Below, in pieces: positions 1-12,501 of a DNA stretch of 19,033 nucleotides. Within the stretch, counting starts at the first letter, position 1. Every line of letters starts with the position of its first letter. Source of the DNA: a virus. Taxonomy: Duplodnaviria; Heunggongvirae; Uroviricota; Caudoviricetes. Under the pieces are notes generated by a model, which worked only from the letters and a program-made list of their open reading frames with translations, was not told the DNA's origin and searched no databases. The stretch lies in the IMG/VR virus record IMGVR_UViG_2681813004_000005, positions 1 to 19,033 of that record; one strand, written 5' to 3'. Both the position numbers and the translations under genes were made by a program.

Positions 1-30
1 TTATTTATTTTTTCAGGTTTTGTAAATTAT

Positions 31-60
31 TTGTTCGTGGTTGTTCCAGGTTGTTCGGTG
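31..60. repeat. Three tandem 10-bp units TTGTTCnnnn (ttgttcgtgg / ttgttccagg / ttgttcggtg); function unknown, possible regulator binding array upstream of the unit-1 capsid operon
   Basis: Read directly: TTGTTC at 31, 41 and 51, exact 10-bp phasing. Confidence 0.8.
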
Positions 61-73
61 ATTCTGGCTGATG

Positions 74-101
74 TTTACATACTGATTTTTATGTATATGT
101 T
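74..101 (+). promoter_or_regulatory. Putative sigma70-like promoter (TTTACA, 16-bp spacer, TATGTT) upstream of the unit-1 capsid gene
   Basis: TTTACA at 74-79 and TATGTT at 96-101 in an AT-rich stretch about 150 bp upstream of the capsid start. Hexamer match only. Confidence 0.25.
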
Positions 102-132
102 GGCGTGTGGCACTCAGACGTGAGCCGCCACA

Positions 133-182
133 ATGCCGCCTGACCCCCTGCGCGATGCCGGGTTGATCTGCGAGATGCCGGG
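133..182. repeat. Three copies of ATGCCG(C/G) at about 21-bp spacing (two copies extend to GATGCCGGG); function unknown
   Basis: Read directly: aATGCCGcc at 133, gATGCCGgg at 155 and 175. Confidence 0.7.
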
Positions 183-250
183 AGTGTCGGGCGGCGCTCC
201 CTCCGTGTTGGTTTCACGTCCTGAATCTTAACCAATACGAGAAAACCTTC

Positions 251-1396
251 ATGAAGAAATTAATCGAACTCCGCCAGCAAAAAACCGCCCTGAAAAACCA
301 GATGCGATCCCTGCTGGAAAAAGCCGACAGTGAAAACCGCAGCCTGAACGATGACGAAGGCAAACAGTTTGATGAACTGCGTGCAAAAGCCGATTCCCTC
401 GACACAGAAATCTCCCGTCTTGAAGCTGTTGCGGATGAAGAACGTAACCAGCCAGGTGTTTCCGTCGAAGAGAAAATCACCAAAGACGAACTACGCTCTT
501 ACATTCTGACCGGGGAAACCCGCAACCTGTCCGGCAGTGTCCCGGCTGATGGTGGTTATACGGTTATCCCGGAACTGAACAGAGAAGTTATGCGTCAGCT
601 TTCTGATGAATCGGTGATGCGTAAAATCTGTACTGTTAAAACCATTCACAGCAATGAATTTAAGCAACTGGTTTCTGCCGGGGGCGCGGTCGTTGAACAC
701 GGTGAAGAAGGTGCAGCACGTAACCAGACGGCAACACCAAAACTGAATGAAGTCAGTATCCGCCTGTATCCGATCTACGCTTACCCGAAAACCACTCAGG
801 AAATTATCGATTTTTCCGAAGTCGATATTATGGGCTGGTTATCTTCTGAAATTGGCGACACTTTCGTTGATACCGAAGAAACGGATCTGGTTTCCGGTGA
901 TGGCGAGAAAAAAGCTAAAGGTTTCCTGGCTTTTCCGCGCACTGCGGATAACGACAAAACCCGTCCTTTCGGTACGCTCCAGACGAAAAAAGTTACTGGC
1001 AGTCTCAGCGCCGACATGCTGATTGACCTGAAATTTACGCTGCGCAATAAGTACCGCAAAAAAGCTGTATGGGTGATGAACTCAAATACAGCCGCCTCCG
1101 CACAAAAACTGAAAAATGCCACTGGTGATTACATCTGGCGCGATCGTTTACAGGCTGGTGATCCTGATTCTCTGCTGGGGCTTCCGGTTGAATATCTGGA
1201 ATTTATGCCGGACGGTGTGATTGCAGTAGGTGACTTTAAGCGCGGTTATTTCATCGTTGACCATGAAACCGGTACGCGTACCCGTCCGGATTTCAGCGAA
1301 CCCGGATTCATTAACATCTATACCCAGAAATATCTGGGCGGTGGTGTGGTGGATTCGAACGCCATCAAGATTCTGGAAATTCAGGCTGGCAAGTAA
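251..1396 (+). CDS. Major capsid protein, HK97 fold, with N-terminal coiled-coil delta (scaffold) domain
   Basis: 381 aa ORF. N-terminal roughly 100 aa is charged and coiled-coil-like. C-terminal half aligns with the second capsid ORF at 10393-11598 (shared KGFLA, FKRGY.IVD, VDS.AIK.L motifs). Immediately followed by a terminator hairpin. Confidence 0.85.
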   Translation: MKKLIELRQQKTALKNQMRSLLEKADSENRSLNDDEGKQFDELRAKADSLDTEISRLEAVADEERNQPGVSVEEKITKDELRSYILTGETRNLSGSVPADGGYTVIPELNREVMRQLSDESVMRKICTVKTIHSNEFKQLVSAGGAVVEHGEEGAARNQTATPKLNEVSIRLYPIYAYPKTTQEIIDFSEVDIMGWLSSEIGDTFVDTEETDLVSGDGEKKAKGFLAFPRTADNDKTRPFGTLQTKKVTGSLSADMLIDLKFTLRNKYRKKAVWVMNSNTAASAQKLKNATGDYIWRDRLQAGDPDSLLGLPVEYLEFMPDGVIAVGDFKRGYFIVDHETGTRTRPDFSEPGFINIYTQKYLGGGVVDSNAIKILEIQAGK

Positions 1397-1401
1397 TGAG
1401 C

Positions 1402-1426
1402 AAAGGGGGCTTCGGCCTCCTTTTTC
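1402..1426 (+). terminator. Rho-independent terminator after the unit-1 capsid gene
   Basis: AAGGGGGC / TTCG tetraloop / GCCTCCTT stem (8 bp with one G-U pair) followed by TTTTT. Confidence 0.6.
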
Positions 1427-1445
1427 AGCTTTATGGAGTACACCG

Positions 1446-2006
1446 ATGAAAAATACCGATTTTGAAATCCGTACATCTGAACTGACCGCCAGCGATAAAA
1501 AACTGGTGGGTTATGCCGTTCGCTGGAACAGCCTTTCAGAAATTATCTGGGACGAATTCCGCGAACAGTTCACGCCGGGGGCTTTTGCTGACTATCTGGC
1601 GGCGGGTAATGATGTGCGCTGCCTGTATGAGCATGACTATACCCGACTGCTGGGGCGCACCAAATCCGGAACACTGGTACTGACTGAGGACAACACCGGG
1701 CTACGTTTTGAACTGACACCGCCTGATACCCAGCTTGGAAAAGATGTGCTTACGCTGGTGGAGCGTGGCGATATTACAGGAATGAGCTTTGGCTTTCGCG
1801 CATTATGCGAAGAATGGAATATCGCGCAAAAACCGTATCTGCGTACTGTTACCGCTGCAGAACTCAGGGAAATCACGATCACGTCGATGCCTGCTTATCC
1901 CGAATCTGGCGTGGAGATTGCCCACCGTTCGTTGTTTGCACAGCACCCTGAATTACGCCCGGCAGGAAATAATCGTCATCGCTGGGCTGAACTGGCGGGG
2001 TTGTGA
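1446..2006 (+). CDS. Prohead maturation protease, HK97 family
   Basis: First ATG of the 1230-2006 frame that has an RBS (GGAG about 10 nt upstream). Aligns with the protease ORF at 9728-10378. Position next to capsid and portal genes. Confidence 0.75.
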   Translation: MKNTDFEIRTSELTASDKKLVGYAVRWNSLSEIIWDEFREQFTPGAFADYLAAGNDVRCLYEHDYTRLLGRTKSGTLVLTEDNTGLRFELTPPDTQLGKDVLTLVERGDITGMSFGFRALCEEWNIAQKPYLRTVTAAELREITITSMPAYPESGVEIAHRSLFAQHPELRPAGNNRHRWAELAGL

Positions 2007-2007
2007 T

Positions 2008-3231
2008 ATGTGGTGGCCTTTTAGTCGTAAAAAAAGCGATCTGCGTAACCTGTCCATTGATGATTTTCTGGCGCTGTCCGGCGTACCGAATACCGGATCC
2101 GGAGAATATGTTTCTGCCGGGACGGCTGAATCATTGCCTGCTGTGATGAACGCGGTTTCTGTCATCGCTGAGGCGGTGGCCACGATGCCGTGTTATCTGT
2201 ATCTGGTACGTAATGACAAGGGCAGGGAGGCGCGGGAATGGCTGGACAGTCATCCGGTAGATATTCTGCTGAATGAGCAGCCTAATTCATGCCAGACACC
2301 TTACCAGTTTAAACGCACAATGATGCGTCACTGCCTGCTGAACGGTAACGCCTATGCGGTTATTGAGTGGGGGCAGGACGGGCAGCCAAAATCACTTCAT
2401 CCTTATGCGCCGGGGTGTGTTGTACCGGAACGCACAGGCGCACACAAATACCGATATACCATCACCGAACCCTATACAGGAACGGTGCGCACGTATTTAC
2501 AGGAAGAAGTTCTGCATCTCCGCTATGCCTCGGATGATGGCTTTCTGGGGCGTTCCCCCGTCACGATTTGCCGTGAGGCGCTGGGGCTTGGCCTTGCTCA
2601 ACAGCGTCACGGAGCCAGCATTATGAAAGATGGCATGATGGCGGCAGGGATTATCACGTCAGGCGAATGGCTGGACGGCGTGAAAGGTAAACAGGCATTA
2701 GACGCCCTGGAACGCTACAAGGGGGCGAAAAATGCCGGAAAAACGCCAATCCTTGAAGGGGGCATGGATTACAAGCAACTGGGGATGAGTAACCAGGATG
2801 CGGAATGGCTGGCCTCCCGTCGCTTCTCCATTGAAGACATCGCCCGGATGTTCAACGTGTCGCCTATTTTTCTGCAGGAATACAGCAACAGCACCTACAG
2901 CAATTTCAGTGAGGCAAGCCGCGCGTTTCTGACCATGACAATGCGTCCTTGGTTGGCGAACTTCGAACAGCAAATCAAGGCCGCTTTGCTGGTGGCTTCT
3001 CCCGTGCCTGGAACCCGTTATCTGGTTGAGTTTGATTCAGCCGATTTATTACGCGCCACCCCTACCGAACGTTACGCCACGTATGAGAAAGGGATTAAGA
3101 ACGGGATCATCAATCCGAACGAAGCCCGTGAGCGTGAGGGAATGCCGCCGCGTGAAGGTGGTGACGAGTTCAGCCAGGCATGGAAGCAGGAAGTGACAAT
3201 CAGCAAGAACAGTAAGGGCGGTGACGAATGA
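2008..3231 (+). CDS. Portal protein, HK97 family
   Basis: ATG at 2008, 2 nt after the protease stop. The track ORF from 1789 is an upstream artefact in the same frame. N-terminus MWWPFSRKKSD parallels MFFSGLFQRKSD of the second portal; shared C-terminal motifs (SIEDIARMFNV vs QLEEICRLFRV; NPNEAREREGMPPREGGDEF vs SPNDCRDLEDMNPRPGGDVY). Confidence 0.85.
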   Translation: MWWPFSRKKSDLRNLSIDDFLALSGVPNTGSGEYVSAGTAESLPAVMNAVSVIAEAVATMPCYLYLVRNDKGREAREWLDSHPVDILLNEQPNSCQTPYQFKRTMMRHCLLNGNAYAVIEWGQDGQPKSLHPYAPGCVVPERTGAHKYRYTITEPYTGTVRTYLQEEVLHLRYASDDGFLGRSPVTICREALGLGLAQQRHGASIMKDGMMAAGIITSGEWLDGVKGKQALDALERYKGAKNAGKTPILEGGMDYKQLGMSNQDAEWLASRRFSIEDIARMFNVSPIFLQEYSNSTYSNFSEASRAFLTMTMRPWLANFEQQIKAALLVASPVPGTRYLVEFDSADLLRATPTERYATYEKGIKNGIINPNEAREREGMPPREGGDEFSQAWKQEVTISKNSKGGDE

Positions 3232-3566
3232 TAGCCGGAAAGATGCGGGACCGGGTGACGATTATGACATTTACCACACAGCGCCTGCCGTCAGGTGCGA
3301 TCCAGCAGATATGGACGGAAGGGGAAACCCTCTGGGCAGAGGTCAAGGGGATCAGCGGACGGGAATTACTGACCGCAGGCGCAGAAACCGCACCTGCAAC
3401 GATTCGGGTATGGGTTCGCTATCGTGGCGACATATCCGCCGCCAGTCGCCTGAAAGTGCTTACCGGCGCTTTTGCCGGGAGCACGCTTAATATCATCGGG
3501 ATCCCCTTACCTGATGCGAAAAGAACCCGGCTGGAAATTCTGGCAAAGGTGGGTACAGAAAAATGA
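3228..3566 (+). CDS. Head-tail adaptor / head closure protein
   Basis: 112 aa. ATG overlaps the portal stop (ATGA). About 66 of 112 residues identical in an ungapped hand alignment to the ORF at 12163-12501, including the block WAEVKGISGRE and LKVLTGAF. Confidence 0.8.
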   Translation: MIAGKMRDRVTIMTFTTQRLPSGAIQQIWTEGETLWAEVKGISGRELLTAGAETAPATIRVWVRYRGDISAASRLKVLTGAFAGSTLNIIGIPLPDAKRTRLEILAKVGTEK

Positions 3567-3859
3567 CAGCAGAAAAAATAACCCTGGAAGAGGCCAAACT
3601 TCACTGCCGCATAGATGGTAACACAGAAGACACACTGATTCAGGCATACATAAGCGCGGCGCTGGAGGTATGCCAGAAGCATATTGGCAGGCGTTTTGAT
3701 GACGGCCTGGAATTTACCCCTGCAATAAAAATTGGTTGCCTGATGTACATCTCGCAACTGTACGAGTACCGGACAACGCTTGGCGATACCGATACAAAAG
3801 AAATTCCCCTGACGATTTCTGCGCTCTGGTCGGTTTATCGTGATGTGGGGGTGTACTGA
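3563..3859 (+). CDS. Head-tail connector, gp6-like
   Basis: 98 aa. ATGA overlap with the upstream gene. N-terminal TLEEAKLHCRID matches TLEELRVQCRID of the ORF at 11849-12154; weaker similarity further on. Confidence 0.7.
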   Translation: MTAEKITLEEAKLHCRIDGNTEDTLIQAYISAALEVCQKHIGRRFDDGLEFTPAIKIGCLMYISQLYEYRTTLGDTDTKEIPLTISALWSVYRDVGVY

Positions 3860-4299
3860 TGCCGTGGCAACCATTAAGGCGATGCACTGAGCCGGGCTGT
3901 AATAAGCGCGTGAAGTCCGGCAAGTGTGAAGAGCACAGGCGGGCTGCATGGCGTGCAGAGGATGCCAGACGGGGACACCGCCGCGCGCGCGGGTATTCCC
4001 GACAGTGGGACAAATACCGCGCCCTGTACCTGAGCAAAAACCCGTTATGCGTGCGTTGTCTGGCTAAGGGGATTTATACGCCAGCTCTTGTGGTGGATCA
4101 CATCATTCCCATCAATGGCGGCGGTGATGTTCTCTTCTGGCCTGAGTGGAACCACCAGGCATTGTGCCAGACGTGCCACAACCGTAAGACGACACGGGAA
4201 GACCCAGCCACGAAAGCGAACCGTAAGGCGGGTATGTATCGCGAGCAGGAAGAACGGGCGGCACACCGTAACGACTGGATGTATGGCGATGATGACTGA
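3859..4299 (+). CDS. HNH endonuclease, phage packaging-associated (HK97 gp74-like)
   Basis: 146 aa with Cys-rich N-terminus and HNH motif (DHIIP ... N ... CHNRKT). Sits immediately upstream of terS, as in HK97-type cos phages. Start overlaps the previous stop (TGATG). Confidence 0.8.
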   Translation: MPWQPLRRCTEPGCNKRVKSGKCEEHRRAAWRAEDARRGHRRARGYSRQWDKYRALYLSKNPLCVRCLAKGIYTPALVVDHIIPINGGGDVLFWPEWNHQALCQTCHNRKTTREDPATKANRKAGMYREQEERAAHRNDWMYGDDD

Positions 4300-4468
4300 A
4301 CAGGAGCAAAACAGGCTGATACGTGGACTGATAAGGCAGCGTGACTTATGGAAGACACAGGAGACAGGGCACAAAGCCAACAGGACAGGGCGCACAGAAC
4401 GCACCACAGCGAAGCGATTAACCGACCGTGACCGCGAGGTCATGGAATGTTTTCGCAATCGCTGGTGA
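4283..4468 (+). CDS. Hypothetical small Arg-rich protein (about 60 aa)
   Basis: 3' portion of the 4088-4468 frame beginning at ATG 4283 (or 4289/4292), overlapping the HNH stop. No recognisable motif. The 5' part of that frame overlaps HNH and is discounted. Confidence 0.3.
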   Translation: MAMMTEQEQNRLIRGLIRQRDLWKTQETGHKANRTGRTERTTAKRLTDRDREVMECFRNRW

Positions 4469-4587
4469 GGCCGTCAGAGGGGGTGGGGGAGGTTTTCAGG
4501 ACAAAACCGTCCCTGCCGGACACCGACCGCCTCCTCAAATTTTTGTGCACGGAAATTTTTTTGAAAATAATTGGGCGAAAAAAGAAC

Positions 4588-4944
4588 ATGGCAAGACCAC
4601 CAAAAGCCCCCGCTTACCTGGATGAAATCGCGGTCAGGCAGTGGAAGGAAAAATCGCGCCAGCTTTCCGGGCGGGAAGACCTTACCCCCGCCGACTGGAG
4701 CAATCTGGAGCTGTATTGCGTTAACTACTCCATATACCGCAAAGCCGTCGAAGACCTTGCCACGCGCGGGTTCAGCATTGTTAACAGTCAGGGCAGCGAG
4801 AGCAGAAACCCCGCCCTGAGCGCAAAGGCTGACGCTGAAAGAATAATGATCAAAATGGCTTCTTTGCTGGGTTTTGACCCGGTAAGCCGCCGCAGAAATC
4901 CACCGGAAACAGAGGAAGAGGACGAGCTTGACCGCCTGGCATGA
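4588..4944 (+). CDS. terS: Terminase small subunit, P27 family
   Basis: Internal ATG at 4588 gives N-terminus MARPPKAPAYLDE, typical of P27-family TerS. Sits between HNH and terL. The track ORF from 4447 is an upstream extension. Confidence 0.75.
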   Translation: MARPPKAPAYLDEIAVRQWKEKSRQLSGREDLTPADWSNLELYCVNYSIYRKAVEDLATRGFSIVNSQGSESRNPALSAKADAERIMIKMASLLGFDPVSRRRNPPETEEEDELDRLA

Positions 4945-6607
4945 GTACGCAGAAGGCGTAAAAAACGGCAAAATTACGGCCTGTAAACGACTGAAACAGG
5001 CCGTTAAACGGTATTTTTCTGACCTTGAAAACCCCCTTTACACGTTCGATCCGGAGGTCGTGGAGCGGTTTATTGCCTTTTCCAGGGTGTGTCCGCACGT
5101 AAAAGGCGCAATGCGCGGTAGCCCCATTGAGCTGGAGCCGTGGCAGCAGTTCGCCTTTGCGTGCATCCTGGGCTTTAAGGTTAAGGCCACCGGACGGCGC
5201 AAATACACCAGCGCATTCATTGAAGTGCCGCGAAAAAATGCCAAATCCACGGTCGCCGCTATCCTGGCTAACTGGTTTCTGGTTATGGAAAACGGGCAGC
5301 AGGATATTTACACCGCCGCCGTGAGTCGTGATCAGGCGCGGATCGTGTTTGATGATGCGCGTCAGATGTGCCTTTTATCCCGACCGTTACGAAAGCGGGT
5401 AAATATTCAGGCACACAAGGTGATACACCCGAAAACCAACAGCCTGTTAAAGCCACTGGCAGCAAAAGCGGCAACCATTGAGGGGACAAACCCGAGTCTT
5501 GCCATTGTGGATGAATATCACCTGCACCCAGACAACGGGGTTTATTCCGCGCTTGAACTGGGAATGGGGGCGCGTCCGGAGGGGTTATTATTTGCCATCA
5601 CCACATCGGGGAGCAACGTTGTTTCAGCCTGTAAACAACACTACGACTATTGCTGCCAGATACTGGATGGTGAAGAGGTGAACGAATCCATGTTCGTGCT
5701 GATTTACGAGCTGGATGATGAAAGCGAGGTTGACGATCCGGCGATGTGGATAAAGGCGAATCCAAATATCGATGTTTCCGTCGATCGTGAAAAACTGGCC
5801 TCAACCATCCAGAAAGCGCGGGGTATTCCGTCGCAGTGGGTGGAGATGATGACAAAGCGCTTTAATATCTGGTGTCAGGGGGCTACGCCGTGGATGGGTA
5901 ACGGTGCATGGGCTGAGTGTGCCGGAACGTTCGCGGAGGCGGATTTATACGGGCAGGAGTGCTACGCGGGGCTGGACTTATCATCAACCAGCGATATTTT
6001 TTCAACAAATGATATTTCAAGCGTGTGTTATGCCTTTCCGGTTGGTAAAACCATCATGCTGGTTTCCCGTCATTATCTGCCGGAGCAGCAGCTACAGAAT
6101 CCCGCCAATAAAAACCGCGCCATCTATCGCCAGTGGGCAAAATCGGGCTGGATACGCACAACGCCAGGCGACTGTATTGATTACGACCGTATCAGGGATG
6201 ACATCATGAAGGACGCGGAAAATTTTAATATCCGGCTGGTGGGCTTCGATACATGGAACGCCACGCACCTGATGACGCAGCTACAGGGCGCAGGATTTGA
6301 GGTGGAGCCGTTCCCGCAAACATACCTTCGTTTCAGTCCGGCGGCGAAATCGTTCGAAGTTTTTGTTAACCGGAAGGTGATTGTGCATCGTGGCGATCCG
6401 GTGCTGGCCTGGTCAATGAGTAATGTTGTGATGCAGAGTGACGCGAACGCCAATATCAAGCCGAACAAGAAAAAATCATCCAACAAGATAGACCCGAGCG
6501 TTGCGGCTCTGATGGCGTTTGGCACATTCCAGGCAGAGCATGAGGAATTTGCATTTGATATGAGCGACAGCCACAAAGAGCGACTTGCGGCGTTTGATGG
6601 GGTATGA
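4928..6607 (+). CDS. terL: Terminase large subunit (ATPase plus nuclease)
   Basis: 559 aa. The only in-frame start after the upstream stop is TTG at 4928, with a GAGGAAGAGG purine tract before it; overlaps the terS end. C-terminal half aligns with the terL remnant at 7572-8315. Confidence 0.85.
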   Translation: MTAWHEYAEGVKNGKITACKRLKQAVKRYFSDLENPLYTFDPEVVERFIAFSRVCPHVKGAMRGSPIELEPWQQFAFACILGFKVKATGRRKYTSAFIEVPRKNAKSTVAAILANWFLVMENGQQDIYTAAVSRDQARIVFDDARQMCLLSRPLRKRVNIQAHKVIHPKTNSLLKPLAAKAATIEGTNPSLAIVDEYHLHPDNGVYSALELGMGARPEGLLFAITTSGSNVVSACKQHYDYCCQILDGEEVNESMFVLIYELDDESEVDDPAMWIKANPNIDVSVDREKLASTIQKARGIPSQWVEMMTKRFNIWCQGATPWMGNGAWAECAGTFAEADLYGQECYAGLDLSSTSDIFSTNDISSVCYAFPVGKTIMLVSRHYLPEQQLQNPANKNRAIYRQWAKSGWIRTTPGDCIDYDRIRDDIMKDAENFNIRLVGFDTWNATHLMTQLQGAGFEVEPFPQTYLRFSPAAKSFEVFVNRKVIVHRGDPVLAWSMSNVVMQSDANANIKPNKKKSSNKIDPSVAALMAFGTFQAEHEEFAFDMSDSHKERLAAFDGV

Positions 6608-6888
6608 CGAGAATGAGCGAAACCGAACTACTAAAAATAATCCGCCGCGTTACCGGAATCAGCCAGGAAGCAGGCAAACAGGAGGCCACGCAGCCGGACA
6701 GCGTGATAGCCGAAAATTACGCGCGTGTGGTGGCTGAGGTGATGCGCCGTGACGGTATCGAGCTTAACGGCGTGGATATACGCACCAGAGTTCTGGAGTT
6801 GTTGTCATATCGTCGCCGCGTGGAGATGTACCAGGAGAAAGAAAAAATTACTTACCACTGGAAGAAGCCGGAGCGGTTACGACGTTAA
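6604..6888 (+). CDS. Hypothetical protein (94 aa), last gene of unit 1
   Basis: ATGA overlap with the terL stop suggests translational coupling. No motif recognised. Confidence 0.45.
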   Translation: MTRMSETELLKIIRRVTGISQEAGKQEATQPDSVIAENYARVVAEVMRRDGIELNGVDIRTRVLELLSYRRRVEMYQEKEKITYHWKKPERLRR

Positions 6889-6890
6889 CT

Positions 6891-6940
6891 TGTGGTGACA
6901 TACCGTGACGGAGAGTGACAACCAGTGACACACAGTGACA
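6891..6940. repeat. Five GTGAC(A/G) hexamers at exact 10-bp phasing; candidate protein-binding array (integrase arm-type, terminase or regulator sites)
   Basis: Read directly: GTGACA 6895, GTGACG 6905, GTGACA 6915, 6925, 6935, each preceded by a variable 4-mer. Starts 3 nt after the stop of the 6604-6888 ORF. Confidence 0.85.
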
Positions 6941-7001
6941 AAAAGACGGTATTTAAATAGAGTGGGTGTTTAATACCCCCCGTTTTTTTTCGTGTGGTGC
7001 A

Positions 7002-7016
7002 TGGTCAAAATGACCA
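7002..7016. promoter_or_regulatory. Perfect palindrome TGGTCA-AAA-TGACCA, operator-like
   Basis: Read directly; 6-bp arms, 3-bp spacer, preceded by a T8 run at 6983-6990. Confidence 0.5.
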
Positions 7017-7142
7017 CGGAGAAGATACGCACCGAAGCAGAACAATTACCGTAGGTTAAAGCGACAGTATTCACACCAGCAACCTGATTATCAATTTTCA
7101 GCCGTTCGGTGGCATCACTGGCCCCATTTTCCTGATGGGGTT

Positions 7143-7193
7143 GCGGGTTATTTTGGGGGTATTTGCGGGTTATTTTGAATGTCTCGCGGGTTA
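7143..7193. repeat. Three direct copies of GCGGGTTA at 21-22 bp spacing
   Basis: Copies at 7143, 7165, 7186; the first two sit in a longer unit TTTGCGGGTTATTTT. Confidence 0.85.
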
Positions 7194-7270
7194 CGCTTTG
7201 GCTAATATTCAAACGCATCATTTTTTAACGCATTGATATTAAAGAATAAAAAATACTTAGCAAGCGAAGA

Positions 7271-7295
7271 TAACCCGCTAACCCGCATAACCCGC
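7271..7295. repeat. Three tandem copies of TAACCCGC (reverse complement of GCGGGTTA) at 8-9 bp spacing
   Basis: Copies at 7271, 7279, 7288. With the 7143-7193 array they form an inverted pair around an AT-rich core of about 75 bp (7194-7270). Confidence 0.85.
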
Positions 7296-7571
7296 ACTGT
7301 TTTGTATATATATACGAAAAATTGCATTCAGGGGGGTGATCGAAATTTCTACTGCCTCTTATCTCTTTGAGTGCTCACCTCGTCAGATTGTTACACACAA
7401 GAAATAAAAAATGCTTCGCGATGGTAGGTCGAATCACTGTATCAAAAAACGGTGTGTATCAGCATTAAAACAATACAGATACGTGTATTGCGCTGTGTAT
7501 TGCTTGATGATTTATAAAGACTGTTTTTTCATGTTAAACGATTGATATACAGGTGATTTTAAAAAACTTGA

Positions 7572-8315
7572 AATATTCTTACCAAACACATGAATGTGTG
7601 GGTCACTGCCGAGTCTGCCTGGATGGACATGATTAAGTGGGAGAAATGCGAATACATTGCCCCACGACATGAGCTGAAAACGTATCCCATGTGGGTCGGC
7701 GTTGACCTTGCTCATAAGATTGATATCTGTGCGGCGGCAAAACTCTGGCGAACGGATAACGGGCATGTTCATGCCGATTTTAAATTCTGGCTCCCGGAAG
7801 GACGGCTGGAACGATGCTCGCGGCAGCAGGCAGAACTTTACCGGAAGTGGGCGGAGATGGATAAGCTGATTCTGACGGATGGTGATGTTATCGATCATGC
7901 TCAGATAAAAAGTGACTTACTGGAATGGATTGGTGGTGAAAACCTCAGGGAACTGGGATTTGACCCGTGGAGCGCGATGCAGTTCAGCCTGGCACTGGCT
8001 GAAGAAGGGATACCGCTGGTGGAGGTTCCGCAGACGGTTCGCAATCTGTCAGAGGCCATGAAGGAAACGGAATCACTGGTCTATGCCGGACGTTTCCATC
8101 ACAGCAATCATCCGGTCATGAACTGGATGATGTCTAACGTTACGGTAAAACCGGACAAAAACGACAATATCTTCCCGAATAAATCCACGCCGGAAGCCAA
8201 AATCGACGGCCCTGTTGCGATGTTTACAGCGATGAGCCGGATGCTGGTCAATGGTGGTGAACCGGAGCCGGATCTGTCTGAACATCTGGTCAGCGTGGGC
8301 ATCCGCTCGCTTTAA
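7572..8315 (+). pseudogene. terL: 5'-truncated terminase large subunit (C-terminal nuclease-domain remnant only)
   Basis: Frame is open only from 7572 (TGA at 7569-7571). The 241 aa from ATG 7590 align with the C-terminal part of the unit-1 TerL (LYRKWAEMDKLILTDGDVIDH vs IYRQWAKSGWIRTTPGDCIDY; HPVMNWMMSNV vs DPVLAWSMSNV). ATPase domain and upstream terS are absent; AT-rich non-coding DNA lies upstream. Confidence 0.8.
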
Positions 8316-8326
8316 CCGAGGTCATT

Positions 8327-8509
8327 ATGTTTCTGATAATTCTCGCGCCACTGGTGGGCGTGCTGGGTGCGCTTTTGCTGGCGTATGGTGCCTGGCTGAT
8401 TTATCCCCCGGCGGGTTTTGTTGTTGCCGGGGTGCTGTGCCTGTTCTGGTCGTGGCTGGTGGCGCGATATCTCGACCGTACACAGCCGTCTGTCGGCGGA
8501 GGTAAATAG
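8327..8509 (+). CDS. Small hydrophobic protein, two predicted transmembrane helices
   Basis: 60 aa, GAGG RBS 6 nt upstream; two hydrophobic segments ([23 protein letters not shown] and [16 protein letters not shown]). Confidence 0.5.
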
Positions 8510-9750
8510 TGTTCTTTTCGGGATTATTTCAACGAAAAAGTGACGCGCCGGTGACCACGCCAGCAGAGCTGGCGGATGCCATCGGGTTGTCTTACGACAC
8601 CTATACCGGAAAGCAGATCAGCAGTCAGCGAGCCATGCGACTGACGGCGGTTTTTTCCTGCGTCAGAGTGCTGGCAGAGTCGGTCGGGATGTTGCCCTGC
8701 AATCTGTATCACCTGAACGGCAGCCTGAAACAGAGGGCCACCGGCGAACGTCTGCATAAGCTGATCTCCACGCATCCCAATGGCTATATGACGCCGCAGG
8801 AGTTCTGGGAGCTGGTGGTCACCTGTCTGTGCCTGAAGGGAAACTTTTACGCCTACAAAGTGAAAGCATTTGGCGAAGTGGCTGAACTGCTGCCCGTCGA
8901 TCCCGGTTGTGTGGTACCGAAGCTTAACAGTCGCTGGGAGCCGGTCTATCAGGTCACATTCCCGGACGGTTCCACGGATGTACTGAGCCAGGAAGATATC
9001 TGGCATGTGCGCACGCTGACGCTGGACGGTCTGGTGGGACTGAATCCCGTCGCCTATGCCCGCGAGGCAATATCGCTGGCAGCAGCGACCGAAGAGCACG
9101 GGGCCAGACTGTTCAGCAATGGTGCGGTGACGTCCGGTGTGTTGCGTACAGAACAGACGCTGTCGGATCAGGCTTATGAGCGCCTGAAGAAAGATTTTGA
9201 GGAGCGTCACACCGGGCTTGGCAATGCTCACCGCCCGATGATCCTTGAGATGGGGCTGGACTGGAAGTCGATGGCGCTGAACGCTGAGGACAGCCAGTTC
9301 CTGGAAACCCGCAAGTTTCAGCTTGAAGAAATCTGTCGTCTGTTCCGGGTGCCGTTGCACATGGTGCAGAACACCGATCGCGCCACCTTCAACAATATCG
9401 AAGAGCTGGGGCTGGGATTTATCAACTATTCACTGGTGCCGTATCTGACCCGCATCGAACAGCGGATCAACACCGGACTGGTACGAAAAAGTAAGCAGGG
9501 CGTTTATTACGCCAAATTTAACGCCGGGGCGTTACTGCGCGGGGATATGAAGTCCCGTTTTGAAGCCTACGCCACCGGGATCAACTGGGGAATTTACTCT
9601 CCCAATGACTGCCGCGACCTGGAAGATATGAATCCGCGTCCCGGTGGGGATGTCTATCTCACACCGATGAACATGACCACGAAACCCTCCGATGGCAGTA
9701 AAGCCGGTAAGCAGAAGGATAACGCCAATGCAGACGAAACAACGTCTTGA
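8509..9750 (+). CDS. Portal protein, HK97 family (prophage)
   Basis: 413 aa. GTG start at 8509 overlapping the upstream stop, GGAGG RBS. Homologous to the unit-1 portal. Confidence 0.85.
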   Translation: MFFSGLFQRKSDAPVTTPAELADAIGLSYDTYTGKQISSQRAMRLTAVFSCVRVLAESVGMLPCNLYHLNGSLKQRATGERLHKLISTHPNGYMTPQEFWELVVTCLCLKGNFYAYKVKAFGEVAELLPVDPGCVVPKLNSRWEPVYQVTFPDGSTDVLSQEDIWHVRTLTLDGLVGLNPVAYAREAISLAAATEEHGARLFSNGAVTSGVLRTEQTLSDQAYERLKKDFEERHTGLGNAHRPMILEMGLDWKSMALNAEDSQFLETRKFQLEEICRLFRVPLHMVQNTDRATFNNIEELGLGFINYSLVPYLTRIEQRINTGLVRKSKQGVYYAKFNAGALLRGDMKSRFEAYATGINWGIYSPNDCRDLEDMNPRPGGDVYLTPMNMTTKPSDGSKAGKQKDNANADETTS

Positions 9751-10378
9751 TGTACCGCTGAGTCTGAAATCTGTCAGTGACTCAGGTGAGTTTGAAGGGT
9801 ATGGCTCCGTCTTTGGTGTAAAGGACAGTCACGATGATGTGGTGATGTCCGGGGCATTTGCTGCTTCCCTGCGGGCGTGGAGTGACAGAAAAGCGTTACC
9901 TGCGCTGCTCTGGCAGCACCGCATGGATGAACCCATCGGTGTTTACACCGAAATGAAGGAAGACGATGTCGGGCTTTACGTCAGGGGACGGTTGCTTATT
10001 GATGATGATCCCCTCGCAAAACGCGCACATGCACACATGAAGGCCGGTTCGTTAACCGGCCTTTCTATTGGGTACGTCCTGAAAGACTGGGAATACGACC
10101 GGAGCAAAGAAGCCTTTCTGCTGAAAGAAATCGACCTCTGGGAAGTCAGCCTGGTGACGTTCCCGTCTAACGACGAGGCGCGGATCAGCGACGTCAAGAA
10201 CGCACTGGCCCGCGGGGAAATCCCCGAACAGAAAAAAATTGAAAGAGTCCTGCGTGATGTCGGACTCTCCCGTACCCAGGCCAAAGCATTCATGGCCGGG
10301 GGCTATGGCGCACTGTCCCTGCGCGACGCTGAGGATGTGGGCTCTGCACTGAATGCACTGAAAAATCTGAACTTCTAA
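9728..10378 (+). CDS. Prohead maturation protease, HK97 family (prophage)
   Basis: ATG at 9728 with AAGGA RBS; overlaps the portal 3' end. The track ORF from 9692 is an upstream extension. Position between portal and capsid. Confidence 0.75.
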   Translation: MQTKQRLDVPLSLKSVSDSGEFEGYGSVFGVKDSHDDVVMSGAFAASLRAWSDRKALPALLWQHRMDEPIGVYTEMKEDDVGLYVRGRLLIDDDPLAKRAHAHMKAGSLTGLSIGYVLKDWEYDRSKEAFLLKEIDLWEVSLVTFPSNDEARISDVKNALARGEIPEQKKIERVLRDVGLSRTQAKAFMAGGYGALSLRDAEDVGSALNALKNLNF

Positions 10379-10392
10379 TCAGGAGAAATACG

Positions 10393-11598
10393 ATGGCGGT
10401 TGATATTAAAGATGTCGAACAGGTCGCGCAGGAGCTGCAGCAGAAGTTTGACGACTTCAAAGCAAAGAACGACAAGCGCGTGGATGCGATTGAGCAGGAA
10501 AAAGGCAAACTTGCCGGGCAGGTGGAAACCCTGAACGGGAAACTCAGCGAGCTGGAAAACCTCAAAAGCGATCTTGAAAAAGAGCTGCTTGAGCTGAAAC
10601 GTCCGGCAGGTGGTGCGCAGAATAAACTGGCCACCGAGCATAAAGAAGCGTTTGTGGGCTTCCTGCGTAAAGGCCGTGAAGATGGTCTGCGCGATCTGGA
10701 GCGTAAGGCATTACAGGTGGGCACCGATGAAGACGGTGGCTATGCCGTGCCGGAAGCGCTGGATCGCAACATTCTTAACCTGCTGAAAGATGAAGTGGTG
10801 ATGCGCCAGGAAGCCACGGTGATCACCGTTGGCGGTTCCGACTACAAAAAACTGGTGAATCTGGGCGGTACGGCTTCCGGATGGGTTGGCGAGACTGACG
10901 CGCGCTCCCAGACTGCCACTTCCAGACTGGGGCTGATTGAACCTTTCATGGGGGAAATCTACGGTAACCCGCAGGCCACCCAGAAAATGCTGGATGATGC
11001 CTTTTTCAACGTGGAGGCCTGGATCAACAGCGAGCTGGCAACCGAATTTGCCGAACAGGAAGAAATTGCCTTTACCACCGGCGATGGTACCAAGAAGCCG
11101 AAAGGGTTCCTGGCGTATGAATCCACTGATGAAACCGACAAGGTCCGGGCGTTCGGCAAACTTCAGCATATTGTATCCGGCGAAGCGACGACGGTGACTG
11201 CAGATGCTATTATCAAACTGATTTACACGCTGCGTAAGGCACACCGCACCGGCGCGAAGTTCATGATGAACAACAACAGCCTGTTTGCCATTCGTCTGCT
11301 GAAAGACACCGAGGGTAACTATCTGTGGCGTCCGGGGCTGGAGCTGGGGCAGCCGTCCTCTCTGGCGGGTTACGGTATCGCTGAAAACGAACAGATGCCG
11401 GATATTGCCGCTGATGCGAAAGCCATTGCATTTGGTAACTTCAAACGGGGTTACACCATCGTTGACCGTATCGGTACCCGCATTCTGCGTGACCCGTACA
11501 CCAATAAACCGTTTGTCGGTTTTTATACCACCAAGCGCACCGGCGGCATGCTGGTCGATTCGCAGGCCATCAAACTGCTGAAGATTGCAGCGGCGTAA
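10393..11598 (+). CDS. Major capsid protein, HK97 fold with delta domain (prophage)
   Basis: 401 aa. AGGAG RBS. Coiled-coil N-terminus, C-terminal motifs shared with the unit-1 capsid protein. Followed by a hairpin. Confidence 0.9.
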   Translation: MAVDIKDVEQVAQELQQKFDDFKAKNDKRVDAIEQEKGKLAGQVETLNGKLSELENLKSDLEKELLELKRPAGGAQNKLATEHKEAFVGFLRKGREDGLRDLERKALQVGTDEDGGYAVPEALDRNILNLLKDEVVMRQEATVITVGGSDYKKLVNLGGTASGWVGETDARSQTATSRLGLIEPFMGEIYGNPQATQKMLDDAFFNVEAWINSELATEFAEQEEIAFTTGDGTKKPKGFLAYESTDETDKVRAFGKLQHIVSGEATTVTADAIIKLIYTLRKAHRTGAKFMMNNNSLFAIRLLKDTEGNYLWRPGLELGQPSSLAGYGIAENEQMPDIAADAKAIAFGNFKRGYTIVDRIGTRILRDPYTNKPFVGFYTTKRTGGMLVDSQAIKLLKIAAA

Positions 11599-11603
11599 TC
11601 ATT

Positions 11604-11632
11604 CAGGGGGCGCAGAAGTGCGCCCCTGTTCT
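11604..11632 (+). terminator. Probable terminator or attenuator after the prophage capsid gene
   Basis: GGGGGCGCA / GAAG / TGCGCCCC stem (about 8 bp) followed by a weak TTCT tract. Confidence 0.4.
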
Positions 11633-11648
11633 GACAGGTGAAAGAATC

Positions 11649-11837
11649 ATGATCCTGAAACAAGATCTGAAATGGTCACCGGACGGTATGCGTGTTGAGA
11701 TTATTCGGGCCGGTGAGTATGAAGATAAAGAATTACCCGAACGGGTACGCGAAATTGCCACTGCAGCTGGGATTGTCTCTGATAAGAGAACACCTGTTGC
11801 GCGGGGGGCTGATAAGTCTAAAAAACAGCATTCATAG
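11649..11837 (+). CDS. Hypothetical small protein (62 aa)
   Basis: ATG preceded by AGGTG; fills the capsid-connector gap. No motif recognised. Confidence 0.4.
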   Translation: MILKQDLKWSPDGMRVEIIRAGEYEDKELPERVREIATAAGIVSDKRTPVARGADKSKKQHS

Positions 11838-11848
11838 AGGTTGCCCAA

Positions 11849-12154
11849 ATGATGCCCACTCTGGAAGAGCTTCGTGTTCAGTGCCGGATTGATGATGACA
11901 ATGAACAGGAGAATTCTCTTCTTATGATGTATCTGGCTGCTGCCAGGGAAGAGGCTGAAAAGTTTTTAAACCGGACGCTTTACGATGAAACTGTTTCTGA
12001 GCAGGATACGACCGGGCTTGTAATAACACCTCTGATAAAGCTGCGTCTTATGCAACTGGTTGGCTACTGGTACGAGAACAGGGAAATGCAGGATGCAGTG
12101 CCTGATTTTTTCTATACCGGACTGCGGATGTATCGGTTTCATCCCGGAACATAG
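11849..12154 (+). CDS. Head-tail connector, gp6-like (prophage)
   Basis: AGAGG RBS 8 nt upstream. N-terminal TLEELRVQCRID motif shared with the unit-1 connector. Confidence 0.7.
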   Translation: MMPTLEELRVQCRIDDDNEQENSLLMMYLAAAREEAEKFLNRTLYDETVSEQDTTGLVITPLIKLRLMQLVGYWYENREMQDAVPDFFYTGLRMYRFHPGT

Positions 12155-12162
12155 GAGGATTC

Positions 12163-12501
12163 ATGCAGGCAGGAAGATTACGTGATCGTGTGGTTATTCT
12201 GAATGCCACCACCGTTCGGTCTCCATCAGGGCACCCTGTGGAAACAATGACGGAGGGGGCAACCATATGGGCAGAAGTTAAGGGGATCAGTGGCAGGGAG
12301 AGAATATCCGGAGGCGCAGAAACTGCTCAGGCTACAGTGAGGGTCTGGATGAGATTCCGGCGAGATGTGACAGCAACTTCATGTCTGAAAGTGCTGACTG
12401 GTGCATTCAAAGGCGCGATTCTGAGTATAGACGGTCCGCCGATACCGGATGCCCGTGCCACCCGGCTTGAGATACTCTGTTCTCAGAAGGGGAATGTGTG
12501 A
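12163..12501 (+). CDS. Head-tail adaptor / head closure protein (prophage)
   Basis: 112 aa, strong RBS (AGGAGG). About 59% identical by hand count to the unit-1 adaptor at 3228-3566. Confidence 0.8.
   Translation: MQAGRLRDRVVILNATTVRSPSGHPVETMTEGATIWAEVKGISGRERISGGAETAQATVRVWMRFRRDVTATSCLKVLTGAFKGAILSIDGPPIPDARATRLEILCSQKGNV

What the first reader, a model, noticed from the sequence alone, without database searches (positions are those of the whole stretch)
251..6607. Non-canonical gene order in unit 1
Unit 1 reads capsid, protease, portal, adaptor, connector, HNH, terS, terL. The prophage module in the same window has the usual order (terL, portal, protease, capsid, connector, adaptor). Unit 1 is not just a circular permutation of that order, because capsid-protease-portal is reversed. 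In unit 1 the capsid gene comes first and is followed by a terminator, which would favour capsid over-expression.
Basis: seen in the sequence. Interest (0 to 1): 0.5.

Follow-up and report, generated by a model that had tools for sequence, protein, structure and literature searches.

The report
Known satellite (cf-PICI) head-gene order
The odd gene order is real, but it is the published trademark of capsid-forming phage satellites (cf-PICIs), and this copy sits inside the large-terminase gene of its host prophage, an arrangement that is also already described.

Summary
Observation confirmed. HMMs assign 251-6607 as capsid, S78 protease, portal, head-closure Hc1 ("adaptor"), gp6-like Ad1 ("connector"), HNH, TerS and TerL, all on the + strand. 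The prophage downstream has the canonical order portal, protease, capsid, Ad1, Hc1, then tail genes.

The order is not new. Alqurainy et al. state that proteobacterial capsid-forming PICIs have a conserved organisation of "capsid-protease-portal-head connectors" followed by "hnh-terS-terL". I found the same order in E. coli elements at three integration sites, and in Morganellaceae, Klebsiella and Pasteurella elements. Each carries int, alpA and a primase and lacks tail and lysis genes.

"Unit 1" is the right half of such a satellite. It is inserted site-specifically in the prophage's terL, so the prophage "terL" in the window is only a 3' fragment. The attR sequence and its TTACCAA identity block match the published helper-embedded PICI group A:Terminase_1:246 (Tommasini et al. 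2023).

The post-capsid hairpin is real and is conserved in structure across divergent relatives. A comparable hairpin also follows the canonical prophage capsid gene, so it is not tied to "capsid first". Capsid over-expression is plausible but untested.

Verdict: correct observation of an already known system. Low interest.

The parts
31..101 (+). Upstream control region of the satellite late operon. It holds TTGTTC x3 at 10-bp phase (31, 41, 51) and a sigma-70-like site, TTTACA-16-TATGTT (74-101).
   Evidence: Consensus matches only; function is inferred.
251..1396 (+). Satellite major capsid protein (HK97 fold), first gene of the operon.
   Evidence: PF05065 at 6e-60 and phrog_10 at 7e-85. 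74% identical to an EcCIEDL933-type capsid protein. At most 37% identical to true phage capsids.
1402..1425 (+). GC-rich hairpin (UUCG loop) plus U-run between the capsid and protease genes. Candidate attenuator or mRNA-stabilising element.
   Evidence: -17.7 kcal/mol, z = -2.1. A hairpin sits at the same position in 9 relatives with different sequences.
1446..2006 (+). Prohead serine protease (S78).
   Evidence: PF04586 at 3e-45 and phrog_80. Start codon taken from PGAP homologues.
2008..3231 (+). Portal protein.
   Evidence: PF04860 at 5e-92 and phrog_12.
3228..3566 (+). Head closure protein Hc1 (Phage_HCP), the 'head-tail adaptor' of the cf-PICI literature. This is a variable cassette.
   Evidence: PF05521 and phrog_25. 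Absent from the nearest relatives L001, L002 and L017. 62% identical to the resident prophage Hc1.
3563..3859 (+). gp6-like head-tail connector (Ad1).
   Evidence: PF05135 and phrog_40.
3859..4299 (+). HNH endonuclease, the packaging accessory of HNH-cos systems.
   Evidence: PF01844 and phrog_144 at 4e-45.
4481..4503 (+). Candidate cos cleavage region (GGGGTGGGGGAGGTTTTCAGGAC) between HNH and terS.
   Evidence: It aligns with the right physical end of the 16.5-kb virion-derived record LR881103, whose left end lies just upstream of terS. Inferred, because it assumes the record ends are the true termini.
4588..4944 (+). Small terminase (P27 / Terminase_4 family). The longer 4447 start is probably not used.
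   Evidence: PF05119 at 2e-23 for the 118-aa form. PGAP homologues are 118 aa.
4928..6607 (+). Satellite large terminase, full length (ATPase plus nuclease domains).
   Evidence: PF03354 plus PF20441, and phrog_9 at 4e-178. Only 31% identical to the intact prophage TerL.
6604..6888 (+). Last conserved ORF of the operon (phrog_1561, function unknown).
   Evidence: Present in L001, L002, L013 and L017.
6895..6990 (+). GTGAC x5 at 10-bp phase (6895-6939), followed by a terminator-like hairpin and a T8 run (6964-6990).
7143..7295 (.). Iteron-like repeats: GCGGGTTA x3 direct and x3 inverted, flanking an AT-rich stretch. Candidate replication origin.
   Evidence: Inferred.
7483..7585 (+). attR of the satellite: the doubled GTGTATTGC motif (7483, 7495) and the identity block TTACCAA (7579-7585).
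   Evidence: Matches the published attR and att identity of HE-PICI group A_Terminase_1_246. Junction mapped against an intact terL.
7586..8315 (+). 3' fragment (nuclease domain) of the helper prophage terL, cut off by the satellite insertion.
   Evidence: PF20441, profile positions 64-283 only. Aligns to L003 3469-3600 of an intact 585-aa terL.
8509..12501 (+). Helper prophage head module in canonical order: portal, protease, capsid (followed by hairpin 11606-11627), Ad1, Hc1.

Best explanation
Unit 1 is the late (head-morphogenesis and packaging) operon of a capsid-forming phage-inducible chromosomal island (cf-PICI). The order capsid, protease, portal, adaptor (Hc1), connector (Ad1), HNH, TerS, TerL is the conserved, lineage-defining organisation of proteobacterial cf-PICIs. 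It is inherited, not a local rearrangement.

This copy is about 15.9 kb in close relatives. It is a 'helper-embedded' PICI, integrated by a tyrosine recombinase at a TTACCAA core inside the terL gene of an HK97-like, HNH-cos lambdoid prophage and co-oriented with that prophage's late genes.

Inferred working model, taken from the published systems:
1. Prophage induction activates the satellite, through AlpA and/or read-through from the helper late operon.
2. Int and AlpA excise the satellite, which restores the helper terL.
3. The satellite replicates.
4. Its operon makes small T=4 capsids from its own capsid, protease and portal proteins.
5. Its own HNH-TerS-TerL cut at a cos site between HNH and terS and package the ~15-kb genome.
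6. Hc1 and Ad1 dock these heads onto tails made by the helper.

In packaged DNA the map therefore reads cos-terS-terL ... int ... rep-capsid-protease-portal-Hc1-Ad1-HNH-cos.

The hairpin after the capsid gene most likely acts as a partial terminator or 3' mRNA stabiliser that raises capsid output relative to the downstream genes. Both the satellite and ordinary HK97-like phages have this device.
For: Shown here:
- HMM assignments and gene order.
- 418 of 5426 complete E. coli genomes hold at least 80% of window 1-7600.
- The same order, with int, AlpA/HTH, a D5/DUF927 primase and SSB upstream and no tail or lysis genes, occurs at three E. coli sites: prophage terL (L001, L017), yifB (L002) and a third site (L013). 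It also occurs in Morganellaceae (L014-L016), in the Klebsiella-type virion record LR881103 (16.5 kb) and in Pasteurella Pmp8 (15.3 kb).
- The L013 capsid carries D257, K290, D295, E319, R345 and STGVPAD, the residues reported for the EcCIEDL933 capsid protein. The window is colinear with L013 at 78% nucleotide identity.
- The capsid is at most 37% identical to true phages. Satellite proteins are 26-41% identical to the resident prophage proteins, except Hc1.
- Insertion site: an intact terL in 906 genomes, the attR junction in 34 genomes and the whole composite in 24.
- Junction mapping. Simulated excision in L001 restores a gap-free 585-aa TerL.

From the literature:
- The conserved order is stated in 10.1101/2022.09.08.507074 and is used as a search criterion in 10.1101/2025.02.11.637232.
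- T=4 capsids and adaptor/connector control of tail specificity.
- HE-PICI site A:Terminase_1:246, with the same attL and attR text and the 'ttaccaa' identity block.
Against: The window holds only the right ~7.6 kb of the element. Its own int, alpA and primase genes and its attL were not seen, and no complete E. coli genome in the collection is the exact source (best hit 97% identity). Induction, excision, capsid size, the cos position and tail hijacking are all inferred from relatives and papers, not tested for this copy. Neither paper explains why the order is reversed, and neither do I. Hairpin function is untested, and its U-run is weak in some relatives. The prophage may be defective, in which case the satellite would be stranded.
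Confidence: 0.9

Rival explanations
1. The order is an adaptive expression design. Placing the capsid gene first, followed by an attenuating hairpin, sets a descending dosage gradient from one promoter: about 240 capsid copies, then 12-mer portal and connector rings, then catalytic amounts of terminase.
For: Capsid is the first gene after a promoter-like region. The only sizeable intergenic gap in the morphogenetic block holds a hairpin that is structurally conserved across about 58-98% capsid identity with different stem sequences. The downstream genes overlap or abut each other, consistent with translational coupling. The T=4 capsid needs 240 capsid-protein copies.
Against: The canonically ordered prophage in the same window has a stronger post-capsid hairpin, so phages reach capsid excess without reordering. 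Firmicutes cf-PICIs use other orders. Order conservation within one lineage can be simple inheritance. No transcript or protein data exist here.
Confidence: 0.3
2. The order is a neutral historical by-product of stepwise capture or shuffling of helper late genes by satellites that integrate inside late genes. One example would be nested or tandem satellites followed by deletions. The result was then frozen in the proteobacterial cf-PICI ancestor.
For: [quoted passage not shown] They also report that 97% of HE-PICIs target genes A, B, C and E (terL, portal, protease, capsid), which are exactly the genes whose order is scrambled here, and that HE-PICIs occur nested in PICI protease genes. Hc1 behaves as an exchangeable cassette that is closer to phage Hc1s than to other cf-PICI Hc1s.
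Against: Apart from Hc1, the head and terminase proteins are 26-41% identical to phage and prophage homologues where a match was detected at all. Any capture is therefore ancient, and no intermediate orders were seen in the loci examined. No specific recombination path to this order was demonstrated.
Confidence: 0.3
3. Unit 1 is a degraded or rearranged second prophage, or an assembly chimera, placed next to the intact prophage module.
For: Two head modules lie side by side and a terL gene is truncated, which superficially resembles prophage decay or misassembly.
Against: The same 19-kb composite occurs in 24 complete genomes and the exact junction in 34. The insertion is precise at a short core within an otherwise intact terL. 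The element recurs as a compact ~15-16 kb unit at unrelated chromosomal sites and in other genera. It has also been recovered as virion DNA.
Confidence: 0.02

Closest known systems
Capsid-forming PICIs of Proteobacteria, prototype EcCIEDL933 (Alqurainy et al. 2022/2023; He et al. 2025 preprint)
   Same: [quoted passage not shown] No tail or lysis genes. In relatives, int, alpA, primase and SSB lie upstream and the element is about 15-16 kb. The capsid is 74% identical to an EcCIEDL933-type capsid protein. Similarity to phage homologues is low (at most 37%).
   Different: Roughly 78% nucleotide identity to the EcCIEDL933-type element. The adaptor (Hc1) allele differs (56% identity). The integration site is a prophage terL rather than a chromosomal attB. 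AlpA is annotated only as an HTH regulator in the relatives.
Helper-embedded PICIs, site group A:Terminase_1:246 (Tommasini, Mageeney & Williams 2023, PMC10111431), for example Eco1645.15.A_Terminase_1_246
   Same: Same attR text and the same 'ttaccaa' identity block. In relatives, the same attL text. A 15-16 kb element co-oriented with the late genes. The insertion splits terL between its ATPase and nuclease domains, and no replacement coding sequence is supplied.
   Different: That paper does not use the cf-PICI concept or discuss the order of the head genes. The integrase of this particular copy lies outside the window.
HK97-like HNH-cos temperate phages (HK97, HK106, phiP27, SfI, and the resident prophage)
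   Same: Homologous HK97-fold capsid, S78 protease, portal, gp6-like connector, Hc1, HNH, P27-family TerS and TerL. HNH-cos-terS adjacency. A hairpin after the capsid gene.
   Different: The phage order is terS, terL, portal, protease, capsid, Ad1, Hc1, then tail genes. Phages have tail, lysis and immunity modules, genomes of about 40 kb and T=7 heads.
Firmicutes cf-PICIs (two groups) and classical Gram-negative PICIs (EcCICFT073)
   Same: Satellite lifestyle, with int, regulator and primase modules. The Firmicutes groups have the same gene content.
   Different: The Firmicutes groups start with portal-protease-capsid or with HNH-terS-terL. Classical PICIs lack portal, connector and terL genes and remodel helper capsids instead.

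Membership tests
cf-PICI (capsid-forming PICI) | [quoted passage not shown] | tested here: met
   The criterion is quoted from 10.1101/2025.02.11.637232 and 10.1101/2022.09.08.507074.
cf-PICI (capsid-forming PICI) | Absence of lysis genes and of a complete tail module inside the element. | tested here: met
   Nothing of the kind lies between position 1 and attR (7585). The whole elements in L001, L002, L013-L017 have none. The tail genes in the window belong to the prophage beyond attR.
cf-PICI (capsid-forming PICI) | Integrase, regulation (alpA) and replication (primase) modules upstream; size about 10-18 kb. | tested here: inconclusive
   These lie outside the window. They are present in every close relative (int, HTH/AlpA, DUF927 or D5 primase, SSB). 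attL to attR is about 15.9 kb in L001.
cf-PICI (capsid-forming PICI) | Head and terminase proteins distinct from those of phages (low identity). | tested here: met
   Best true-phage capsid hit is 37%. Against the resident prophage: capsid 36%, portal 32%, TerL 31%, TerS 26%. Hc1 is the exception at 62-68%.
cf-PICI (capsid-forming PICI) | Helper-dependent induction, self-made small capsids, hijacking of helper tails. | not testable with these tools
   Needs induction and transfer experiments and electron microscopy.
HE-PICI, site A:Terminase_1:246 | [quoted passage not shown] | tested here: met
   The terL 3' fragment starts at 7586. An intact terL serves as the empty site. All genes are on the + strand.
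HE-PICI, site A:Terminase_1:246 | attR sequence and att identity block of the group. | tested here: met
   Window 7529-7585 reads tttcatgttaaacgattgatatacaggtgattttaaaaaacttgaaatattcttaccaa. This differs at one base from the published attR text of a group-246 element (an off-target member) and ends in the identity block 'ttaccaa'.
HE-PICI, site A:Terminase_1:246 | Integrase belongs to the 11capE-related clade. | not tested
   The int gene is outside the window. Relatives have int directly after an attL that matches the published attL text, but no phylogeny was made.
HE-PICI, site A:Terminase_1:246 | Doubled DNA motif flanking the attP core. | tested here: inconclusive
   GTGTATTGC x2 lies next to attR (7483, 7495) and next to attL in L001. 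I could not see the paper's Supplementary Figure 4 to confirm it is the same motif.
Autonomous HK97-like temperate phage | Canonical head order followed by tail, lysis and immunity modules in one element. | tested here: not met
   The order is reversed and there is no tail or lysis module within the att boundaries.

The most novel reading that the evidence does not exclude
A capsid-forming satellite that brings its own TerL and sits inside its helper's terL could keep the helper unable to package for as long as the satellite stays integrated, while still drawing on helper late transcription and tails. That would in effect turn the prophage into a tail factory. The capsid-first order with a conserved attenuator hairpin would then be an adaptive dosage design for a one-promoter head operon. 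Neither the cf-PICI papers nor the HE-PICI paper that I read makes the explicit link between the two concepts or explains the order.
Probability: 0.2. Interest if true: 0.4.

Novelty: already known. Interest (0 to 1): 0.15.

Why it matters
It has little value as a discovery. The order is a published diagnostic of cf-PICIs, and insertion into prophage terL is a published HE-PICI site.

It is useful for annotation. The capsid-first order, together with a terL fragment next to an attR ending in TTACCAA, is a quick signature that tells a tail-stealing satellite apart from a second or decayed prophage. It also explains why the resident prophage appears to lack an intact terminase.

Two modest open points remain. 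One is why and how the head-gene order was reversed. The other is what it means functionally for a satellite that carries its own TerL to interrupt the helper's TerL.

Tried and rejected
- The single genome-contig scan with the capsid protein gave only 7 loci. One was useful (Rosenbergiella, 89%). The rest were a fragment or distant Firmicutes capsids. Synteny was therefore taken from E. coli genomes, phage records and the look-up of encoding contigs instead.
- Rfam found nothing in the window.
- The generic terminator scan missed the post-capsid hairpin, so it was folded directly.
- No supplement is held for Alqurainy et al., so their six attB sites could not be checked.
- Two literature searches for 'satellite in prophage terL' found nothing directly. 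The relevant paper was reached through reference 47 of the SatelliteFinder paper.
- The exact source genome is not in the E. coli collection.
- My attL pattern did not match in L017, so excision was simulated only in L001.
- 'Klebsiella phage P12620-1' (106 kb) carries a 69.5%-identical capsid followed by two ORFs spaced like protease and portal. Its annotation is all 'hypothetical', so I did not use it as evidence of a phage with this order.
- Rejected readings: mis-assigned homologies, an assembly chimera and a decayed tandem prophage (see the rival explanations).

Full report
OBSERVATION

The + strand of 251-6607 carries eight tightly packed genes. Pfam and PHROGs identify them unambiguously:
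- 251-1396: HK97-type major capsid protein.
- 1446-2006: S78 prohead protease.
- 2008-3231: portal.
- 3228-3566: Phage_HCP, head closure protein Hc1.
- 3563-3859: gp6-like connector, Ad1.
- 3859-4299: HNH endonuclease.
- terS: P27 / Terminase_4 small terminase. The ORF opens at 4447, but the conserved start is ATG 4588.
- 4928-6607: a full two-domain large terminase.

Downstream lies a prophage head-tail module in textbook order: portal 8509, protease 9692, capsid 10393, Ad1 11849, Hc1 12163, Neck1, tail terminator, major tail protein, chaperones and tape measure.

Relative to HNH-terS-terL, both portal-protease-capsid and Ad1-Hc1 are reversed in order, and all genes stay on one strand.

One detail is wrong. 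The prophage 'terL' (7590-8315) is only the nuclease-domain 3' fragment.

WHAT IT IS

Window 1-7600 recurs in E. coli: 418 of 5426 complete genomes hold at least 80% of it.

In strains KFu019 and PEC240 the same module is the right half of a compact element. That element reads int, HTH regulators, a Bro-N protein, an Icd-like protein, DUF4222, a DUF927 primase, SSB, capsid ... terL, and one small ORF. It lies between the 5' 1.0 kb and the 3' 0.7 kb of a prophage terL.

In strain 10035776-3 a near-identical module belongs to an element with a different integrase, inserted in yifB. An element 78% identical in nucleotide sequence sits at a third E. coli site (L013).

The same order, with int, AlpA and a primase upstream and chromosomal genes on both sides, is seen in Morganellaceae (L014-L016). 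It is also seen in two small records deposited as phages: vB_KppS-Ant (16.5 kb, from an induced lysate) and Pasteurella Pmp8 (15.3 kb).

The nearest true phages (SfI, ST64B, phiP27 and others) are at most 37% identical in capsid sequence. SfI, the one whose map I checked, has the canonical order. Against the resident prophage, the satellite proteins are 36% (capsid), 32% (portal), 35% (Ad1), 31% (TerL), 26% (TerS) and 41% (HNH) identical.

COMPARISON WITH THE LITERATURE

This is a capsid-forming PICI. [quoted passage not shown] (hnh-terS-terL)'. They add that Firmicutes cf-PICIs use other arrangements.

[quoted passage not shown] They also show T=4 capsids of 240 capsid-protein copies and show that the adaptor and connector set tail specificity.

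The L013 capsid carries D257, K290, D295, E319, R345 and the STGVPAD motif, the residues He et al. give for the EcCIEDL933 capsid protein. The window's capsid is 74% identical to it.

SatelliteFinder found 969 cfPICIs, in 13% of Enterobacteriaceae genomes, with a very conserved organisation of core components. The finding's gene order is therefore the known hallmark of a known family.

THE INSERTION

A query joining the two terL halves matches an uninterrupted terL in 906 genomes. Alignment to one of them (L003) places the junction at the 5' edge of the window's terL remnant (window 7572-7585). The halves overlap by an imperfect ~14-bp core.

Window 7529-7585 reproduces, with one mismatch, the attR text published for HE-PICI group A_Terminase_1_246, taken from an off-target member of that group. 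It ends in the group's 'ttaccaa' identity block. The attL text of that group matches L001.

Tommasini, Mageeney & Williams described 491 such helper-embedded PICIs at 14 sites in prophage late genes. These elements are co-oriented with the late operon, disrupt the target gene without supplying a replacement, and excise after the composite has excised and replicated.

In the complete E. coli genomes searched here, 34 have this attR junction and 24 have the whole 19-kb composite. Simulated precise excision in L001 restores a gap-free 585-aa TerL.

ANATOMY OF THE OPERON

- A promoter-like site (74-101) follows three phased TTGTTC repeats.
- Capsid is the first gene. It is followed by the only real intergenic gap in the morphogenetic block, which holds a UUCG-looped hairpin at 1402-1423 plus a U-run (-17.7 kcal/mol, z = -2.1).
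- The genes from protease through HNH abut or overlap.
- The termini of the virion-derived record LR881103 align to window ~4481-4503. This puts cos between HNH and terS, as in HNH-cos phages.
- In packaged DNA, terS-terL would therefore lie at the left end and capsid ... HNH at the right end.
- After terL come a conserved small ORF (phrog_1561), five GTGAC repeats at exact 10-bp phase, a terminator-like hairpin with a T8 run, iteron-like repeats around an AT-rich stretch, the doubled GTGTATTGC motif, and attR.

THE TERMINATOR IDEA

A GC-rich hairpin, usually followed by a U-run, sits between the capsid and protease genes in all nine relatives examined. The stem sequences differ, so the structure rather than the sequence is conserved. 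That supports a function.

However, the capsid gene of the canonically ordered prophage in this window is followed by an even stronger hairpin (11606-11627). The hairpin is therefore a general feature of HK97-like head modules and not a consequence of 'capsid first'.

It also cannot be an efficient terminator, because the genes downstream are essential. A dosage-gradient role for 'capsid first plus attenuator' remains a reasonable hypothesis that I could not test.

WHY THE ORDER IS REVERSED

None of the papers I read explains this, and I found no intermediate orders. Two non-exclusive ideas remain: adaptive dosage ordering, and a frozen accident of late-gene capture.

For the second idea, Tommasini et al. 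note captured segments whose order is reversed around integration sites. They also note that HE-PICIs preferentially target terL, portal, protease and capsid genes.

SIDE RESULT ON Hc1

The adaptor gene Hc1 behaves as a cassette. It is absent from the closest relatives. It is only 19-56% identical to the Hc1 of other cf-PICIs. Yet it is 62% identical to the resident prophage's Hc1 and 62-68% identical to phage Hc1s. This agrees with the published role of the adaptor in tail compatibility.

VERDICT

The feature is an already described satellite family in an already described embedded configuration. The small residual novelty is the explicit overlap of the two concepts, a cf-PICI with its own TerL inside the helper's terL, together with the unexplained origin of the order. 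Interest is low.

Noticed in passing
window 6895-6939; L002 18537-18581; L013 16700-16734: Five GTGAC motifs at exact 10-bp spacing lie immediately after the last satellite ORF. The array is conserved at the same position in elements with other integrases and only 78% nucleotide identity. It looks like a phased protein-binding array; its function is unknown.
   Followed up: partly
window 31-56 and 74-101: Three TTGTTC repeats at 10-bp phase lie just upstream of a sigma-70-like promoter in front of the capsid gene. This is a candidate activator site for the satellite late operon.
   Followed up: no
window 7143-7295: GCGGGTTA occurs three times as a direct repeat and three times inverted, flanking an AT-rich stretch. 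This iteron-like architecture suggests a replication origin at the right end of the satellite, away from the primase gene.
   Followed up: no
window 3228-3566 versus 12163-12501: The satellite Hc1 (adaptor) is 62% identical to the resident prophage Hc1 and 62-68% identical to phage Hc1s. It is only 19-56% identical to the Hc1 of other cf-PICIs. The gene is missing from the nearest relatives (L001, L002, L017). All other satellite head proteins that matched are 26-41% identical to the prophage's.
   Followed up: partly
window 4481-4503 and 4447-4588: The motif GGGGTGGGGGAGGTTTTCAGGAC aligns with the physical end of the virion-derived record LR881103, so cos probably lies here. The 165-aa terS ORF is therefore probably really the 118-aa form starting at 4588.
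   Followed up: partly
window 7483-7503; L001 5415-5436: The doubled motif GTGTATTGC-N3-GTGTATTGC lies next to attR, and the same doublet lies next to attL in a relative. These are probably arm-type integrase sites, and may be the 'doubled DNA motif' reported for HE-PICI attP.
   Followed up: partly
E. coli genome hit H93 (NZ_CP142035.1, strain HS4), matching window 7581-7830: Another truncated 'TerL endonuclease subunit' starts at almost the same terL position, but without this satellite's attR arm. It may be a different element, or a deletion, at the same hotspot.
   Followed up: no
L019 (PQ569648.1, 'Klebsiella phage P12620-1', 106.5 kb) 9001-12022: A record deposited as a 106-kb phage carries a capsid 69.5% identical to the satellite's, followed by two ORFs spaced like protease and portal. 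It may be a cf-PICI co-assembled with, or embedded in, a phage record.
   Followed up: no
L013 (GCA_026135245.1): The EcCIEDL933-type cf-PICI lies between pntB and phoQ-phoP-purB. As far as I recall, these genes are far apart in E. coli K-12, which would imply a rearrangement with an endpoint at the element in that strain. I did not check this against a K-12 map.
   Followed up: no
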